Shown here piece after piece: positions 1 to 9,119 of a stretch of DNA of 9,563 nt. Source of the stretch: a virus. Taxonomy: Duplodnaviria; Heunggongvirae; Uroviricota; Caudoviricetes. The notes beneath the pieces were generated by a model. It searched no databases, had not been told where the DNA came from, and saw nothing but the letters and a program-made list of their open reading frames with translations. The position numbers were made by a program, and so were the translations under genes. Positions within the stretch are counted from its first letter, which is position 1. Every line of letters starts with the position of its first letter. The stretch spans positions 1 through 9,563 of the IMG/VR virus record IMGVR_UViG_2703718802_000013. The stretch is one strand, 5' to 3'.

Positions 1-210
1 ATGCGTGAAATAAATGAAGATCGCGTAATCCGTGAGGATGAATGTCGTAAGTTAACTGGAGTGTGCCGCACTACACGTTACGAACTGGAGAAAAAAGGGC
101 GCTTTCCGTCACGTCTTAATCTGGGCGGTCGTTCTGTAGGGTGGCTGCTGTCCGAGGTTATGGAATGGGTTAAAAGCAGGGATCGCATTAATTCAGGTAA
201 GGCAGCGTAG
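1..210 (+). CDS. alpA: AlpA-family phage transcriptional regulator (small winged-HTH, excisionase-like)
   Basis: 69 aa ORF from the track. The segment RKLTGVCRTTRYELEKKGRFPSRLNLGGRSVGWLLSEVMEWV matches the AlpA/Vis pattern (HTH followed by G.FP...LG.RSVGW...EV..W) as I recall it. The ORF begins at window position 1, so the true start could lie upstream. Confidence 0.7.
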   Translation: MREINEDRVIREDECRKLTGVCRTTRYELEKKGRFPSRLNLGGRSVGWLLSEVMEWVKSRDRINSGKAA

Positions 211-287
211 GGGGAACATATGACACATAAAACAAAGGCGACCTGGGGCGGTCGCCAATGGGAAAACACTAAACATAAGCCCGAACA

Positions 288-503
288 TCATAGCGATTTG
301 CTGGCTGGTGGGCAATTATCTTGCTTGTTGGGGCCGTATTGTGCTGCCATTTTCATCCGTTCAGAACGTGAATATTTTTTTAGAAACTCATCAAGGACAA
401 AAGCGCATGGTGCGAATCTTTCTGATTCATGCTCTGGCGCCATATTTTCGTGCTCTCTGTCCGTTTTTTGCGATGGTGTATTGGTTGATTCTTTGTTGGT
501 CAT
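288..503 (-). CDS. small hypothetical protein (71 aa), partner gene of RHH cassette 1; paralog of 954-1181
   Basis: Track ORF starting MTN. Its C-terminal region (FVLDEFLKKYSRSER) resembles that of the 954-1181 product (FALEDFVDKYPRRLK). It sits 57 nt downstream, on the minus strand, of the RHH gene 561-734, and the intergenic element is conserved with the one before 954-1181. The SD is weak. Confidence 0.4.
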   Translation of the reverse strand: MTNKESTNTPSQKTDREHENMAPEHESERFAPCAFVLDEFLKKYSRSERMKMAAQYGPNKQDNCPPASKSL

Positions 504-560
504 TGTGTGTACCTGTAAAGCAATGCGCCGTAGTACCTCACGCCACGGCGCTGATGTTTT

Positions 561-734
561 TTATCCTTTGGGTTCAATACCGCGTTGCTGTAATTCTTTT
601 CGGAGTACTCGCTTGATCCAGGTGGCTAAAGAAGTGTCACCGTCTGCTTTCGCTGCCTCTTCAAGTTGTGCTCTGAATTCTTCTGGTAGCCGCATTTGGT
701 ATGGAGGCGATCGCTTTTCCAATGGTGTTGACAT
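561..734 (-). CDS. ribbon-helix-helix (Arc/MetJ-like) DNA-binding protein, 57 aa
   Basis: Not in the ORF track because it is under 60 aa. My minus-strand translation is MSTPLEKRSPPYQMRLPEEFRAQLEEAAKADGDTSLATWIKRVLRKELQQRGIEPKG. The beta-strand then two-helix pattern (YQMRLPEEF...LATWIKRVLRKEL) resembles Arc-type repressors. The start codon overlaps a palindromic operator. Confidence 0.5.
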   Translation of the reverse strand: MSTPLEKRSPPYQMRLPEEFRAQLEEAAKADGDTSLATWIKRVLRKELQQRGIEPKG

Positions 735-776
735 GGTAATTACCCTTAATTACTATAGTTACATGGTAATTACCAT
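733..776. promoter_or_regulatory. two copies of a palindromic operator-like site (ATGGTAATTACC at 733-744; perfect 14-bp palindrome ATGGTAATTACCAT at 763-776)
   Basis: Read directly from the sequence. GGTAATTACC is self-complementary. The two copies are 30 bp apart and overlap the start codon and presumptive promoter of the minus-strand RHH gene 561-734. Confidence 0.45.
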
Positions 777-792
777 TGTACTTACCGTTATA

Positions 793-834
793 CAAAAAAC
801 AACGCCCCGCAGTGGTGGCTCACATACGGGGCGT
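793..834 (-). terminator. hairpin (ACGCCCCG / CGGGGCGT, 8-bp stem) followed by a T-run on the minus strand
   Basis: Stem arms at 802-809 and 827-834 with a 17-nt loop. The plus-strand A-run 794-800 reads as a T-run on the minus strand. It lies downstream of minus-strand gene 954-1181. It could instead be an RNA structural element of the duplicated module. Confidence 0.4.
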
Positions 835-865
835 CTAACCAAACCATTAATTGAGGTAACGATTA

Positions 866-920
866 TGGCTATAAAAGAGCATAGCTTACTCTTTATACAC
901 ACACAAACGCCCCGGAAACG
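866..920 (+). pseudogene. 5' remnant of an Icd-like gene (first ~18 codons only)
   Basis: ATG at 866 with a GAGG RBS. The translation MAIKEHSLLFIHTQT parallels MVAVNHIPHLVHTQT at the start of the Icd-like gene 1604-1801. Homology is lost after about 55 nt and no FVWRF or TEREAR motif follows. Confidence 0.3.
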
Positions 921-953
921 GAATAATCCGTTTCATAGTTCGGTTTTGTGCAC

Positions 954-1181
954 TCATCCTGGCGGTCGGTTTTTGCCGGATTTAAGCCGCCGTGGGTATT
1001 TATCGACAAAATCTTCAAGGGCAAATTTTTCTGGTGGCATTAAGCGCGGCGCTGGTGGTGGTATTTTTGTTCTGGTTAGTTCTTCCTCAACTCTGGCGCA
1101 GGCTTCTGACTGCCTTTGCCGGATGATTTCATCATCTTGCGTTTGCGTGTCTTGTATTGGTGATAGTGTGTTGTTGGTCAT
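954..1181 (-). CDS. small hypothetical protein (75 aa), partner gene of RHH cassette 2; paralog of 288-503
   Basis: Track ORF starting MTN. It lies directly downstream, on the minus strand, of RHH-like gene 1239-1418, separated by a conserved ~50 bp element that contains a hairpin. Confidence 0.4.
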   Translation of the reverse strand: MTNNTLSPIQDTQTQDDEIIRQRQSEACARVEEELTRTKIPPPAPRLMPPEKFALEDFVDKYPRRLKSGKNRPPG

Positions 1182-1238
1182 GATACTGCCCTGTAAAGTA
1201 ATGCGCCATAGTACCTCACGCCACGGCGCTGATAGTGA

Positions 1239-1418
1239 TTATTCTGATTCTTTGGCCTTGCGACGCTGGCGGCGTTTGATTTCGCCGCGCATGGCAGTAA
1301 CGATAAATTGTGCGTCTGTTTCGTTTTCTTCTTTTACCAAATTCATTTCGCTTAAAACGTCTAGAGGTACTCTAGCAGTTTTTTGTTGTGACTTGTTGTT
1401 GGTTGTACCTGTTGGCAT
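1239..1418 (-). CDS. small DNA-binding protein, probably ribbon-helix-helix (59 aa)
   Basis: Shares the track ORF 1239-1586 frame, but I start it at the internal ATG at 1418, which is preceded by a strong SD (minus-strand AGGAGAACAGAG then ATG). The product MPTGTTNNKSQQKTARVPLDVLSEMNLVKEENETDAQFIVTAMRGEIKRRQRRKAKESE aligns loosely with the 561-734 RHH protein (RLPEEF...LATWIKRVLRKEL versus RVPLDV...AQFIVTAMRGEIKR). Confidence 0.45.
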   Translation of the reverse strand: MPTGTTNNKSQQKTARVPLDVLSEMNLVKEENETDAQFIVTAMRGEIKRRQRRKAKESE

Positions 1419-1484
1419 CTCTGTTCTCCTTACTGTTAGGTGGTGTTCAGTATACGGAGAAAAAAAAATAAAAAAAGACTTGAA

Positions 1485-1529
1485 GTGCAAGTCACCTAAA
1501 AGTAACCTAGATTTCAAGGTGACTTGCAC
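1485..1529. promoter_or_regulatory. perfect 13-bp inverted repeat GTGCAAGTCACCT - N19 - AGGTGACTTGCAC (operator-like) in the divergent intergenic region
   Basis: Read directly. It lies between the minus-strand RHH-like gene (start 1418) and the plus-strand Icd-like gene (start 1604). A TATACT -10-like hexamer for the minus-strand gene is at 1451-1456. Confidence 0.45.
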
Positions 1530-1530
1530 C

Positions 1531-1572
1531 AAAAAAACAACGCCCCACAGTGCTGGAACACATGCAGGGCGT
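1531..1572 (-). terminator. hairpin (ACGCCC / GGGCGT) with a minus-strand T-run; paralog of the 793-834 element
   Basis: Stem arms at 1540-1545 and 1567-1572. The plus-strand A-run 1531-1539 is a T-run on the minus strand. About 75 percent identical by eye to 793-834 and its flank. Function uncertain (terminator or RNA structure). Confidence 0.35.
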
Positions 1573-1603
1573 CTAACCACAAACACTATAGAGAGGTAAA
1601 TTT

Positions 1604-1801
1604 ATGGTTGCCGTAAATCATATACCACACCTTGTACACACACAAACTGCCTTTGTGTGGCGTTTTCTGGCACTGAGTGCCGGAGAATCTCAAATCATCC
1701 ACGTAACCGCCTGGACGGAACGCGAAGCGCGTAACCTTTGCCCGTCCGATTGTGTTGCTGTATACGCCGCCCGTATTCGCCAGGGGTCACATCATGCGTA
1801 A
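1604..1801 (+). CDS. Icd-like small protein (host cell division inhibitor Icd-like family), 65 aa
   Basis: Track ORF with RBS GAGAGG. The motifs FVWRF ... TEREAR ... AARIRQG match what I recall of the Icd-like proteins annotated in enterobacterial P4-like and PICI elements. Paralogous to 2088-2261. Confidence 0.5.
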   Translation: MVAVNHIPHLVHTQTAFVWRFLALSAGESQIIHVTAWTEREARNLCPSDCVAVYAARIRQGSHHA

Positions 1802-1988
1802 AAACCGCTTGCAAAAAATTATAACGGGGCTGTATGCTTCCCCCGTCGCCCACATGGCGACCGGGTTTAGCAGCCTGAATACTACAGCGGACAGCCGCTT
1901 ACATTCCGATATGCGGTTTTTTTGTGTCCGTAAGCCTACCCATACCCGCATTATGGCGGGGCGTAACGGGGGAGCCTTTGCGCTCGCT

Positions 1989-2081
1989 GGTTCCTGTAGT
2001 GCCAGTCTGCTAACCCTGTTACGTCTCGCCACCCCGTTTAGCAGCGTAGTAGCGAGACTCCTTAATTTCACTACAGGAGCC
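1989..2081 (+). promoter_or_regulatory. candidate antisense pairing pair: 1989-2003 (GGTTCCTGTAGTGCC) is complementary to the RBS region of the second Icd-like gene at 2068-2081 (TCACTACAGGAGCC)
   Basis: The reverse complement of 1989-2003 is GGCACTACAGGAACC, against ACTACAGGAGCC at the RBS: 12 contiguous pairs if one G-U wobble is allowed, covering the AGGAG SD. This resembles the seqB/seqC logic of P4 CI RNA and P1 c4 RNA. RNA boundaries are unknown. Confidence 0.3.
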
Positions 2082-6040: not shown

Positions 6041-6082
6041 AAAAAAAGCCCGATAAGGTCAGAGGTGGCTTATCGGGCTTTT
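6041..6082. terminator. second, bidirectional-looking terminator (A7 - GCCCGATAAG ... CTTATCGGGC - T4)
   Basis: Read directly: 10-bp stem arms at 6048-6057 and 6069-6078, flanked by an A-run and a T-run. Confidence 0.6.
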
Positions 6083-9027: not shown

Positions 9028-9054
9028 CAGACGCGCAATTATTGAACAAAAATG

Positions 9055-9116
9055 AGAAAGGATCTGATAATGGCATTTTCTGGCTAAAATGCCATTATCA
9101 GATCCTTTCTTTTTTT
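9055..9116. terminator. perfect 25-bp inverted repeat (AGAAAGGATCTGATAATGGCATTTT / AAAATGCCATTATCAGATCCTTTCT) with a 6-nt loop, followed by T6
   Basis: Read directly. It acts as a strong intrinsic terminator after the Nu1-like gene. It also occupies the position, relative to the inverted cos2, where lambda has its own cosB inverted repeat. Confidence 0.6.
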
Positions 9117-9119
9117 AAT

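What the first reader, a model, noticed from the sequence alone, without database searches (positions are those of the whole stretch)
288..1572. Two paralogous minus-strand cassettes (RHH repressor-like gene plus ~70 aa partner), each with its own distinct palindromic operator
Cassette 1 is RHH 561-734 plus partner 288-503, with operator ATGGTAATTACC(AT) twice at 733-776. Cassette 2 is RHH-like 1239-1418 plus partner 954-1181, with operator GTGCAAGTCACCT-N19-AGGTGACTTGCAC at 1485-1529. The RHH proteins and the partners are each divergent paralogs, and the operators differ, as expected if the DNA-binding specificities have diverged. Both are transcribed divergently from the Icd-like/primase operon. 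The layout resembles a repressor/early-operon switch or an antitoxin-toxin-like pair. E. coli-type PICIs are not known to me to carry an Stl-like master repressor, so a duplicated RHH switch here would be worth testing. The partner proteins have no motif I recognise.
Basis: partly seen in the sequence, partly recalled or inferred. Interest (0 to 1): 0.65.

Follow-up and report, generated by a model that had tools for sequence, protein, structure and literature searches.

The report
Tandem repressor switches in phage satellite
Two small leftward genes in this E. coli phage-parasitising island encode ribbon-helix-helix repressors, each matched to its own short DNA boxes on a rightward promoter facing the island's replication genes, which looks like the "off switch" that such islands in Gram-negative bacteria were reported to lack.

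Summary
In detail: all four minus-strand ORFs and both perfect inverted repeats are at the stated coordinates. About 0.02 such repeats are expected per random window.

The window is an EcCICFT073-type PICI (alpA, icd-like genes with a C4 RNA, primase, capsid, terS). Both "RHH" genes are real. RHH2 belongs to the uncharacterised YlcI/YnfO family, and its model matches solved RHH repressors.

In 43 cassettes from E. coli and about 20 other Enterobacterales genera, the boxes fit GTG-N5-CAC. Their N5 core co-varies with the residues that align with Arc's DNA-contacting strand, giving 9 specificity classes. The boxes sit in the spacer and over the start of a rightward promoter facing icd-primase. 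A weaker box sits at the RHH gene's own start. I read this as an operator-specific repressor switch.

The model island EcCICFT073 carries one such cassette, although the literature calls these islands unidirectional with an unclear repressor. Arrays of 2-3 heterospecific cassettes recur; their junction is in 114 of 5,426 E. coli genomes.

The "partner" genes are Escherichia-only orphans, absent from all 34 non-E. coli loci, so a toxin-antitoxin reading is not supported.

Unexpectedly, the opposite strand stays stop-free from alpA to icd, recalling P4 eta.

The parts
1..210 (+). alpA (activator/excisionase family). This is the upstream end of the rightward transcription unit.
   Evidence: Pfam Phage_AlpA 1.7e-16. 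AlpA is the activator of EcCICFT073 (PMC6092414).
220..1599 (+). Stop-free rightward frame (459 codons), antisense to all four small genes and their control regions. Its ATG lies 10 nt after the alpA stop. Its TAA lies 4 nt before the icd1 ATG. The icd' ATG at 865 is in the same frame. I read it as a P4 eta-like translated bridge, not as a protein of its own.
   Evidence: ORF listing. It has 0 stops in the intergenic segments, against 14 and 20 in the other two frames and 10.2 +/- 3.0 in shuffles. The same frame is stop-free in 29/40 distinct RHH-upstream regions, with 32 stops in total against 215 and 208. Tiling ORFs cover the interval in L001-L007 and L043-L046. The P4 precedent is described in PMC10111431.
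237..256 (-). Intrinsic-terminator-like hairpin ending the leftward cassette-1 transcript. There is no T-run on the + strand.
   Evidence: 7 pairs, 6 GC, then TTTGTTTTAT. The hairpin is conserved after alpA in other genera.
288..503 (-). Partner A, a 71-aa Escherichia-only orphan.
   Evidence: PHROG 21027 at 2e-12, unknown function. A variant is present in EcCICFT073. Substitutions are more conservative in this frame than in the antisense frames.
525..551 (-). Conserved hairpin (D1) between the RHH1 stop and the partner A start. It may be a leaky terminator or attenuator.
   Evidence: 9-bp stem, -16.9 kcal/mol, followed by AUUGCUUUAC. The stem is also kept in EcCICFT073.
561..734 (-). RHH1, a type-a RHH repressor of 57 aa.
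   Evidence: PHROG 228 Arc-like repressor 4.9e-7. Pfam Arc 0.0079, below cut-off. NF041551 4.8e-4, below cut-off. It is the sole icd-proximal repressor gene in L045 and L046.
728..776 (.). Cassette-1 control region. The rightward promoter is TTGACA (728-733), 17 nt, TACTAT (751-756). Box O1 GGTAATTACC (735-744) lies in the spacer. Box O2 ATGGTAATTACCAT (763-776) lies over the predicted start. The leftward -10 TATAGT overlaps the rightward -10.
   Evidence: (10/12 promoter match). The same arrangement drives a full icd gene in L046.
794..841 (-). D2 hairpin, copy 1 (stem about 802-834). On the minus strand it is followed by TTGTTTTTTG and so terminates cassette-2 transcripts. On the + strand it has no T-run.
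   Evidence: 88% identical to 1532-1579; -23.9 kcal/mol, z -2.35.
865..909 (+). icd' remnant: RBS plus the first 15 codons of an icd-like gene (MAIKEHSLLFIHTQT). It marks the recombination junction of the array.
   Evidence: 64% identical to 1604-1648. The junction fragment 842-960 is present in 114 of 5,426 E. coli genomes.
954..1181 (-). Partner B, a 75-aa Escherichia-only orphan.
   Evidence: AF2 model: helix 8-38 and helix 55-61, pLDDT 74.7. dN/dS is 0.35 against a 67%-identical variant.
1203..1229 (-). D1 hairpin, copy 2.
1239..1418 (-). RHH2, a YlcI/YnfO-family RHH repressor of 59 aa (specificity class b).
1439..1457 (-). Leftward promoter -10 (TATACT, 1454->1449) abutting a degenerate third box (GGTGGTGTTCAG, 1439-1450).
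   Evidence: GTATACTG followed by a box-like sequence is conserved in nearly all cassettes. In this allele the box differs from the consensus at 5 of 11 positions.
1480..1529 (.). Cassette-2 control region. The rightward promoter candidate is TTGAAG (1480-1485), 17 nt, TAACCT (1503-1508). Box O1 GTGCAAGTCAC(CT) is at 1485-1497, in the spacer. Box O2 is at 1517-1529, just after the predicted start.
   Evidence: A TTGA(A/C)G hexamer immediately precedes O1 in almost all alleles and genera. The promoter is below the threshold of the scan tool.
1532..1579 (.). D2 hairpin, copy 2, followed by CTAACC. It lies in the 5' leader of icd1.
1604..1801 (+). icd-like gene 1, the first gene of the controlled rightward operon.
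   Evidence: NF033153 at 1.8e-17.
1949..2036 (+). C4-type antisense RNA, a second (RNA) layer of immunity downstream of the RHH-controlled promoter.
   Evidence: Rfam RF01695 at 72.2 bits against a gathering score of 45.

Best explanation
Each cassette is a complete divergent repressor/operator module of an EcCICFT073-type PICI.

What the repressor does (inferred). The small RHH protein (YlcI/YnfO family, or the related type a) binds 11-14 bp boxes. These lie in the -35/-10 spacer and just after the start of a rightward promoter that faces the icd-C4-primase (replication) operon. A weaker box lies at the start of the RHH gene's own leftward promoter. The protein would therefore hold the early operon off in the resident island and limit its own synthesis. 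This rests on box position and protein/box co-variation, not on binding data.

What sets specificity (inferred). Specificity appears to be set by two hypervariable residues of the N-terminal beta-strand, the equivalents of Arc Q9 and N11. These read the N5 core of GTG-N5-CAC. The invariant Arg (equivalent to Arc R13) and the invariant GTG/CAC arms are common to all classes.

How the array arose. The window carries two heterospecific modules in tandem. Recombination inserted a second module at the 5' end of icd, leaving 15 icd codons behind. Only RHH2 sits on the promoter next to the real operon. RHH1 controls an intact upstream promoter whose transcript enters the same rightward frame.

How the switch is overridden (inferred by analogy with P4 eta). 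All hairpins terminate only leftward transcripts. The rightward strand is kept translatable from the alpA stop to the icd start. The most likely override is therefore helper-triggered, AlpA-activated rightward transcription. This would run translationally coupled, and so protected from Rho, through the antisense repressor genes into icd-primase. In doing so it would also interfere with repressor synthesis.

The partners. The partner genes are lineage-specific additions co-transcribed behind a leaky hairpin. Their role is unknown. They may be accessory or modulatory proteins expressed while the island is quiescent.
For: - **Co-variation.** There are 9 box classes among 43 cassettes. Pairs sharing a box have 0.84 N-terminal identity (minimum 0.48); pairs with different boxes have 0.53 (maximum 0.74). 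The same protein class keeps the same box from E. coli to Pectobacterium, Yersinia, Xenorhabdus and Edwardsiella.
- **Position.** TTGA(A/C)G is followed directly by box 1, then a -10-like hexamer 17 nt on, then box 2. GTATACT plus box 3 lies before the RHH ribosome-binding site. In cassette 1 the scan tool itself calls TTGACA-17-TACTAT.
- **Synteny.** The order alpA ... RHH (leftward) | icd ... primase (rightward) holds in E. coli and in many of the other loci, including EcCICFT073.
- **Orthogonality.** Each exact box occurs only in its own cassette.
- **Override model.** Stop depletion is specific to one frame. The frame starts after alpA and runs into, or stops at, icd. Terminators are called on the minus strand only at 237-256 and at D2. 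The P4 precedent is in PMC10111431. AlpA activates expression downstream of itself and induces the island (PMC6092414).
Against: - There are no binding, transcript or genetic data. Every promoter is a consensus guess, and the cassette-2 rightward promoter falls below the scan threshold.
- The third box of the window's RHH2 is poor (5 of 11 mismatches).
- Spacing between boxes varies from 22 to 35 bp, so cooperative geometry is not conserved.
- Published work induced EcCICFT073 through AlpA without needing to remove any repressor. RHH may therefore be a modulator rather than a master repressor.
- C4 RNA, if processed from the same promoter's transcript as in P1/P4, needs that promoter to fire at some level.
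- The 40 upstream regions behind the stop-free statistic are related by descent, although strongly diverged.
- For partner B, the sense and wobble-aligned antisense frames are not distinguished by dN/dS (0.35 against 0.37) or by substitution quality.
Confidence: 0.65

Rival explanations
1. The pairs are type II toxin-antitoxin or addiction modules: an RHH antitoxin followed by a small toxin, autoregulated at the palindromes.
Against: The partner is absent from all 34 non-E. coli loci that keep the RHH gene and its boxes, and from E. coli islands L045 and L046. The RHH proteins are minimal (57-59 aa) with no C-terminal toxin-binding extension. The partner model is one long helix plus a basic tail, with no PDB fold match. 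There are no Pfam, NCBIfam or PADLOC hits. The boxes overlap the promoter of the neighbouring operon, not only the RHH gene's own promoter.
Confidence: 0.05
2. Only the icd-proximal cassette matters for this island. The distal cassette (RHH1 and partner A) is a recombination leftover whose value, if any, is in trans. For example, it could repress incoming islands of another immunity type (satellite-satellite exclusion).
For: Cassette 1 faces only a 15-codon icd remnant. Arrays mix alleles freely and number 2 or 3. Type-a RHH is the sole proximal repressor in other islands (L045, L046), so a resident RHH1 could act on those. Several islands with different alleles coexist in one genome (for example NZ_CP129259.1).
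Against: The distal promoter, boxes, RBS and ORF are intact and identical to functional-looking single-copy versions. The icd' ATG is in frame with the stop-free bridge that ends at the icd1 start. The same holds in L004, L007 and L044. This suggests that distal promoters still feed the operon.
Confidence: 0.2
3. The long + strand ORF (220-1599) is the real gene, and some of the small minus-strand ORFs, especially the partners, are shadow ORFs in its wobble-aligned frame.
For: The + frame is significantly stop-free, even in intergenic DNA. For partner B, dN/dS and substitution quality do not favour the minus frame. The 2018 description treated these islands as unidirectional.
Against: The RHH genes are clearly real (family models, fold, sense-specific conservative substitutions). 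The + strand product is Cys/Ser-rich and has no family hit. Its conserved 'N-terminus' is just the translated leftward terminator. Partner A against its EcCICFT073 variant, and A against B, favour the minus frame (-0.19 and -0.26 against -1.54 and -1.37). Partners keep a fixed ATG 57 nt after the RHH stop and a conserved C-terminal motif across variants 30-96% identical.
Confidence: 0.1
4. The cassettes are cargo of a variable hotspot, such as anti-phage defence or helper interference, unrelated to control of the island.
For: They lie in the zone between alpA and the replication genes that a survey calls 'dynamic' (PMC10111431). Content varies between islands.
Against: There are no PADLOC hits. 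The RHH gene and its boxes keep a fixed position and geometry relative to the icd promoter in about 20 genera, which is unlike cargo.
Confidence: 0.05

Closest known systems
P22 immI repressors Arc and Mnt (ribbon-helix-helix), and the RHH repressors CopG and omega
   Different: Sequence similarity is marginal: Pfam Arc is below cut-off for RHH1 and absent for RHH2. The boxes are 11-bp GTG-N5-CAC units in variable number, orientation and spacing, rather than a 21-bp Arc operator. The controlled operon is a satellite's icd/C4/primase operon rather than ant.
YlcI/YnfO family (NCBIfam NF041551; DUF3950) of lambdoid prophages DLP12 and Qin
   Same: RHH2 passes the family cut-off. RHH1 resembles K-12 YlcI in helix 2.
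   Different: The family has no described function in the papers held. K-12 ylcI lies next to cos/nohD, not next to icd, and has no GTG-N5-CAC boxes upstream.
Stl/Rpr master repressors of SaPIs and other Gram-positive PICIs
   Same: The repressor gene is transcribed divergently from the excision/replication operon of a phage-inducible island. Allelic diversity is expected to define who represses whom.
   Different: The protein is unrelated (RHH of 57-59 aa, versus a larger repressor). Nothing here shows that a helper protein inactivates it. In these islands induction is known to go through the activator AlpA (PMC6092414).
P4 immunity region (P_LE, CI RNA/seq sites, eta/kil) and P1/P7 immI (c4-icd-ant)
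   Same: A C4/CI-type RNA with target repeats and icd-like genes lies directly downstream. A rightward frame coupled to the alpA homologue stays open up to the immunity region, as described for P4 eta, whose translation prevents termination (PMC10111431).
   Different: As far as I know, P4 and P1 immI have no protein repressor gene embedded antisense in that frame. Here the bridging frame carries no Bro-N domain and consists of the antisense of the repressor cassettes.
Type II toxin-antitoxin loci with RHH antitoxins (HicB, TacA, CopA-type)
   Same: The fold of the first gene, the two-gene leftward operon, and likely autoregulation.
   Different: The second gene is not conserved with the first, is not toxin-like, and the boxes control a neighbouring operon.

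Membership tests
YlcI/YnfO family (NCBIfam NF041551) | Score at or above the curated cut-off (30 bits) of the family model | tested here: met
   RHH2 (1239-1418): 61.7 bits, E 4.7e-17. RefSeq annotates its close homologues under this name.
YlcI/YnfO family (NCBIfam NF041551) | Same criterion, applied to RHH1 | tested here: not met
   RHH1 (561-734): 20.1 bits, below 30, E 4.8e-4. It is a relative, not a scored member.
Ribbon-helix-helix (Arc/MetJ/CopG) DNA-binding superfamily | beta-alpha-alpha topology with a G-x-S/T turn between the helices | tested here: met
Ribbon-helix-helix (Arc/MetJ/CopG) DNA-binding superfamily | Sequence match to a curated RHH model (Pfam Arc PF03869, cut-off 20.4) | tested here: not met
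   RHH1 scores 16.5 bits (E 0.0079). RHH2 has no Pfam hit. hhalign of the family profile against Arc gives 55% probability, E 1.2e-4.
Ribbon-helix-helix (Arc/MetJ/CopG) DNA-binding superfamily | Dimer whose paired beta-strands read the major groove of repeated sites | not testable with these tools
   This is only inferred: the residues aligned to Arc Q9/N11 co-vary with the N5 core of the boxes.
Type II toxin-antitoxin system | Antitoxin and toxin genes are conserved together as a pair | tested here: not met
   There is no partner homologue in 34 of 34 non-E. coli loci that keep the RHH gene, nor in L045/L046. The partner family is restricted to Escherichia/Shigella.
Type II toxin-antitoxin system | The second gene encodes a recognisable toxin fold or family | tested here: not met
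   No Pfam, NCBIfam or PADLOC family. The AF2 model is a helix with a basic tail, and there are no PDB matches.
PICI master repressor (Stl/Rpr-like role) | Repressor gene divergent from the early (excision/replication) operon, with operators in the intergenic promoter region | tested here: met
   Gene order and box positions hold in the window, in EcCICFT073 and in many other loci. Binding itself is inferred.
PICI master repressor (Stl/Rpr-like role) | Loss of the repressor induces the island; a helper-phage product lifts repression | not testable with these tools
   This needs genetics. Published induction runs through AlpA (PMC6092414).
P4 eta-type translated read-through frame | Open frame starting at or after the alpA homologue and reaching the immunity/early region | tested here: met
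   Frame 220-1599. Frame-specific stop depletion. Equivalent frames or tiling ORFs occur in other loci.
P4 eta-type translated read-through frame | Its translation prevents transcription termination | not testable with these tools
   This is an analogy to P4 as summarised in PMC10111431.
EcCICFT073-type PICI (element context) | int-alpA, icd-like/DUF4222/primase, capsid plus decoration homologues, terS-like | tested here: met
   Window ORFs and families. A near-identical locus has an integrase upstream next to cspD. The layout matches EcCICFT073, where c1499 is the capsid gene and c1500 the decoration gene. int itself lies outside the window.

The most novel reading that the evidence does not exclude
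The YlcI/YnfO-type RHH proteins are the missing maintenance repressors of Gram-negative PICIs, and their box classes (at least 9, plus 2 of type a) define immunity groups of these satellites. Tandem arrays of 2-3 heterospecific cassettes would then act as a multi-input gate: several separately repressed promoters all feed one translated read-through frame into the replication operon. Alternatively or additionally, they would act as a stack of immunities against rival satellites. The repressor genes are embedded antisense inside a P4 eta-like frame, so that AlpA-driven, translation-protected transcription both bypasses and silences them.
Probability: 0.35. Interest if true: 0.8.

Novelty: new variant of a known kind. 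Interest (0 to 1): 0.66.

Why it matters
Phage-inducible chromosomal islands spread virulence and defence genes. In Gram-positive cocci their quiescence is explained by the Stl/Rpr repressor. For the E. coli-type islands, the founding paper found only an activator (AlpA). It called a global repressor "unclear" and described the islands as unidirectional.

A conserved leftward RHH gene, with protein-matched boxes on the promoter of the replication operon, gives that open question a concrete and cheap test. The gene is present in the model island EcCICFT073.

If the reading holds, box classes would predict which islands are immune to each other. The two specificity residues would give a compact recognition code that can be re-engineered. 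The arrays would be a natural example of stacked orthogonal repressors.

The stop-free antisense frame suggests that the P4 trick of translation-protected read-through is general among these satellites.

Tried and rejected
- **Solved structures by sequence.** Nothing meaningful was found for the YlcI profile or for RHH1: designed helical repeats, and AmrZ at E 0.62.
- **tblastn of RHH2 and both partners against 50,697 phage records.** No match. A phage origin of the cassettes could not be shown.
- **PADLOC.** No defence family. One weak Cas8g match to partner A (E 0.0078, 14 bits) was judged to be chance.
- **The search for related loci with both RHH types together.** This failed because no conserved stretch was available. 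It was repeated with the YlcI type only, so the cross-genus survey covers type b-f relatives, not type a.
- **Rfam.** Nothing at the D1 or D2 hairpins. SymR at 1536-1609 has E 0.17, far below the gathering score.
- **Literature.** Searches for YlcI/YnfO function, and for a described repressor of E. coli PICIs, found none in the held library. Papers outside the library cannot be excluded.
- **dN/dS as a discriminator between the partner frame and the + strand frame.** It was inconclusive, because the two frames share wobble positions. A substitution-quality test helped for partner A but not for partner B.
- **The conserved 'MxxKTKAA..GRQ' start of the + frame.** I considered it as protein evidence and rejected it, because it is the translation of the conserved leftward terminator.
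Full report
**1. The observation.** Both inverted repeats are perfect: 733-744/765-776 and 1485-1497/1517-1529. Perfect repeats with arms of at least 12 nt and a gap of at most 40 nt occur four times in the window, against a mean of 0.02 in first-order Markov resyntheses. Exact copies of each box are confined to their own cassette. RefSeq annotates all four ORFs in a 99.4%-identical E. coli locus.

**2. Context.** The window starts with alpA (Pfam 1.7e-16). It continues with two icd-like genes that flank a C4-type antisense RNA with its target repeats (72 bits). Then come DUF4222, a DUF927 primase, capsid and decoration homologues, and a terS-like gene. The near-identical locus has an integrase upstream and sits next to cspD. 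The layout matches EcCICFT073, the experimental E. coli PICI. I located that island in CFT073 by its capsid (c1499) and decoration (c1500) genes.

**3. The two cassettes are diverged copies of one module.** Conserved DNA brackets variable cores.
- The linker from the RHH stop to the partner ATG, which holds a 9-bp-stem hairpin (D1), is 77% identical between cassettes.
- The hairpin-plus-RBS (D2) is 72% identical, and the first 45 nt of icd are 64% identical.
- By contrast, the RHH coding sequences are 40% identical, the partners 41% and the operator zones 9%.

Cassette 1 is followed by only 15 icd codons (ATG 865). The array therefore arose by recombination at the 5' end of icd. That junction fragment occurs in 114 of 5,426 complete E. 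coli genomes. Arrays occur in islands with different integrases, integration sites and replication proteins. One locus carries three RHH genes (L007).

**4. The RHH genes are real repressor-type genes.**
- RHH2 passes the NCBIfam YlcI/YnfO cut-off (61.7 against 30 bits). RHH1 hits the same model below the cut-off, and hits an Arc-like PHROG at 4.9e-7.
- An AF2 model of RHH2 (pLDDT 85.4) has an extended N-terminus and two helices.
- Within a specificity class, dN/dS is 0.05-0.12. Replacements are conservative only in the annotated frame: mean BLOSUM62 of about 0 to +0.2, against -1.0 to -1.4 in the antisense frames.

**5. Protein/box co-variation is the core result.** I collected 34 loci from other Enterobacterales and a dozen E. 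coli loci.
- In 43 YlcI-type cassettes the repeated boxes fit GTG-N5-CAC, and the N5 core tracks the protein. There are nine classes.
- For example, the window's class (..QQKTARVPLD..) pairs with CAAGT; ..QMTTVRIPH.. with TATTT; ..KKLEARVPH.. with TCAGC; and EcCICFT073's ..QALKARVPH.. with TGGCC.
- Each pairing is kept across genera.
- Pairs sharing a box have 0.84 N-terminal identity, against 0.53 for pairs with different boxes.
- hhalign puts residues 12-16 on Arc's DNA-reading strand QFNLR. The two hypervariable positions then correspond to Arc Q9 and N11, and the invariant Arg to R13. The Arc sequence and the roles of those residues come from my own knowledge.
- Type-a proteins behave the same way: PYQMRLP with GGTAATTACC, and PPFQFRLD with ATGTGTATATACACAT.

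**6. Where the boxes sit.** Read rightward, a TTGA(A/C)G hexamer is followed immediately by box 1. A TAnnnT-like hexamer follows 17 nt later, and then box 2. On the other side, GTATACT (the -10 TATACT of the leftward gene) abuts a weaker third box, about 30 nt before the RHH ATG and its GGAG.

In cassette 1 the scan tool itself calls TTGACA-17-TACTAT at 728-756. One box lies in the spacer and the other over the predicted start, and the leftward -10 overlaps the rightward one. In the single-cassette island L046 exactly this region precedes a full icd gene.

This is the geometry of a repressor that shuts the early rightward promoter and autoregulates. It is inferred, not shown. The unit of recognition is the 11-bp box.

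**7. The partners are not an integral half of the system.**
- No partner homologue exists in any of the 34 non-E. coli loci, nor in L045 or L046.
- A word-indexed search found 17 clusters and a full HMM scan of 1.84 billion representatives found 18 hits. All the small proteins among them that carry an organism name come from Escherichia or Shigella, and none has a functional name.
- The family shares a central helix and a C-terminal motif, FALEDFVxKYPRRLKSGKNRPPG. The AF2 model is a long helix plus a short one (pLDDT 74.7) with no PDB match. No defence or toxin family matches.
- Coding evidence is moderate. Partner A comparisons favour the annotated frame; partner B comparisons do not discriminate.

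I therefore reject the TA reading. I treat the partners as lineage-specific additions transcribed through a leaky hairpin.

**8. An unexpected feature bears on mechanism.** The + strand frame 220-1599 has no stop. It begins 10 nt after the alpA stop, behind a GGGGGA. It contains the icd' ATG in frame. It ends 4 nt before the icd1 ATG.
- Within the small genes this is not remarkable (P 0.07 by synonymous permutation).
- In the intergenic segments it is remarkable: 0 stops, against 14 and 20 in the other frames, and 10.2 +/- 3.0 in shuffles.
- Across 40 distinct RHH-upstream regions, the corresponding frame has 32 stops against 215 and 208, and is stop-free in 29.
- In other genera the frame typically starts just after alpA and runs in frame into icd.
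- In the other E. coli loci checked, most of the interval is likewise covered, by a single long frame or by overlapping long ORFs.
- The hairpins at 237-256 and at D2 look like terminators only on the minus strand.

A survey paper summarises the P4 precedent. [quoted passage not shown] I infer the same logic here. AlpA-driven transcription stays translated, and so protected from Rho, across the antisense repressor genes. It thereby both bypasses the repressors and interferes with them. This fits the published finding that AlpA activates expression downstream of itself and induces EcCICFT073 (PMC6092414). It remains untested.

**9. Comparison with what is known.**
- By fold and operator logic, this is an Arc/Mnt/CopG-type switch.
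- By position, it is the counterpart of Stl/Rpr of Gram-positive PICIs, though it is unrelated to them.
- By neighbourhood, it is bolted onto a P1 immI / P4-type RNA immunity module.
- The family name YlcI/YnfO exists, but I found no functional study. K-12 ylcI sits next to cos/nohD, without such boxes.
- The founding PICI paper states that Gram-negative PICIs are transcribed unidirectionally and that a global repressor is unclear. Later papers in the library do not mention these genes.

**10. Verdict.** It carries a directly testable claim about a model satellite, and two further leads: heterospecific arrays and the antisense-embedded read-through frame.

Confidence is 0.65 in the repressor/operator reading. 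It is lower, about 0.35, for the full model with AlpA read-through and array logic.

Noticed in passing
window 220-1599 (+): A 459-codon stop-free frame runs antisense to all four small genes and every intergenic region. It starts 10 nt after the alpA stop and ends 4 nt before the icd1 ATG. The same frame is stop-depleted in 40 related loci (32 stops against 215 and 208). It recalls P4 eta, whose translation prevents termination.
   Followed up: partly
window 1832-2045 (+): A P1 immI-like RNA module lies between the two icd-like genes: c4-a1b1 (45.5 bits, just under the gathering score), an isrK-like hit (36.6 bits), C4 antisense RNA at 1949-2036 (72.2 bits) and a b2-like repeat at 2028-2045. 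An ORF from ATG 1794, which overlaps the icd1 stop, is open across the RNA gene and in frame with icd2.
   Followed up: partly
window 1639-1659 (+): A terminator-like hairpin (CACACAAACTGCCTTTGTGTG followed by GCGTTTTCTG) lies inside the 5' coding region of icd1. It could be a translation-sensitive attenuator. The CACACAAAC motif also marks the icd' junction at 893-914.
   Followed up: no
window 9047-9117: A long, near-perfect hairpin (perfect arms 9055-9066/9099-9110) lies just after the terS-like gene. It produced spurious plant and animal miRNA hits in Rfam. It may be a terminator or a packaging-related site.
   Followed up: no
window 6044-6082: A perfect 12-nt inverted repeat (AAAAGCCCGATA, 15 nt apart) lies upstream of the capsid region. 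It is probably a terminator.
   Followed up: no
L043 3267-~3630; L045 1693-2376; L046 1222-2022: In single-cassette E. coli islands, including EcCICFT073, the slot between alpA and the RHH gene holds rightward genes of the Bro-N/ORF6N/AntA-AntB antirepressor family. The window has none there. An AlpA-dependent antirepressor acting on the RHH protein or on the helper repressor is conceivable.
   Followed up: no
L007 2291-3896; L044 2501-3484: One E. coli locus carries three RHH cassettes in a row. An O111:H8 island combines RHH type a with a 101-aa YlcI-type protein. The array size is therefore not fixed at two.
   Followed up: partly
L047 16252-16446 (K-12 DLP12): The name-giving gene ylcI lies divergently next to the cos site and nohD (terminase small subunit) of a lambdoid prophage. 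It has no GTG-N5-CAC boxes upstream, so the family sits in a different context in phages.
   Followed up: partly
window 794-841, 1532-1579 and related loci: The D2 hairpin is always followed by CTAACC(A/C). Its stem changes by paired substitutions between alleles (ACGCCCCG/CGGGGCGT against AGCCCCGC/GCAGGGCT). It lies in the icd leader on one strand and acts as a terminator on the other. A role as an RNA element on the + strand was not examined.
   Followed up: no
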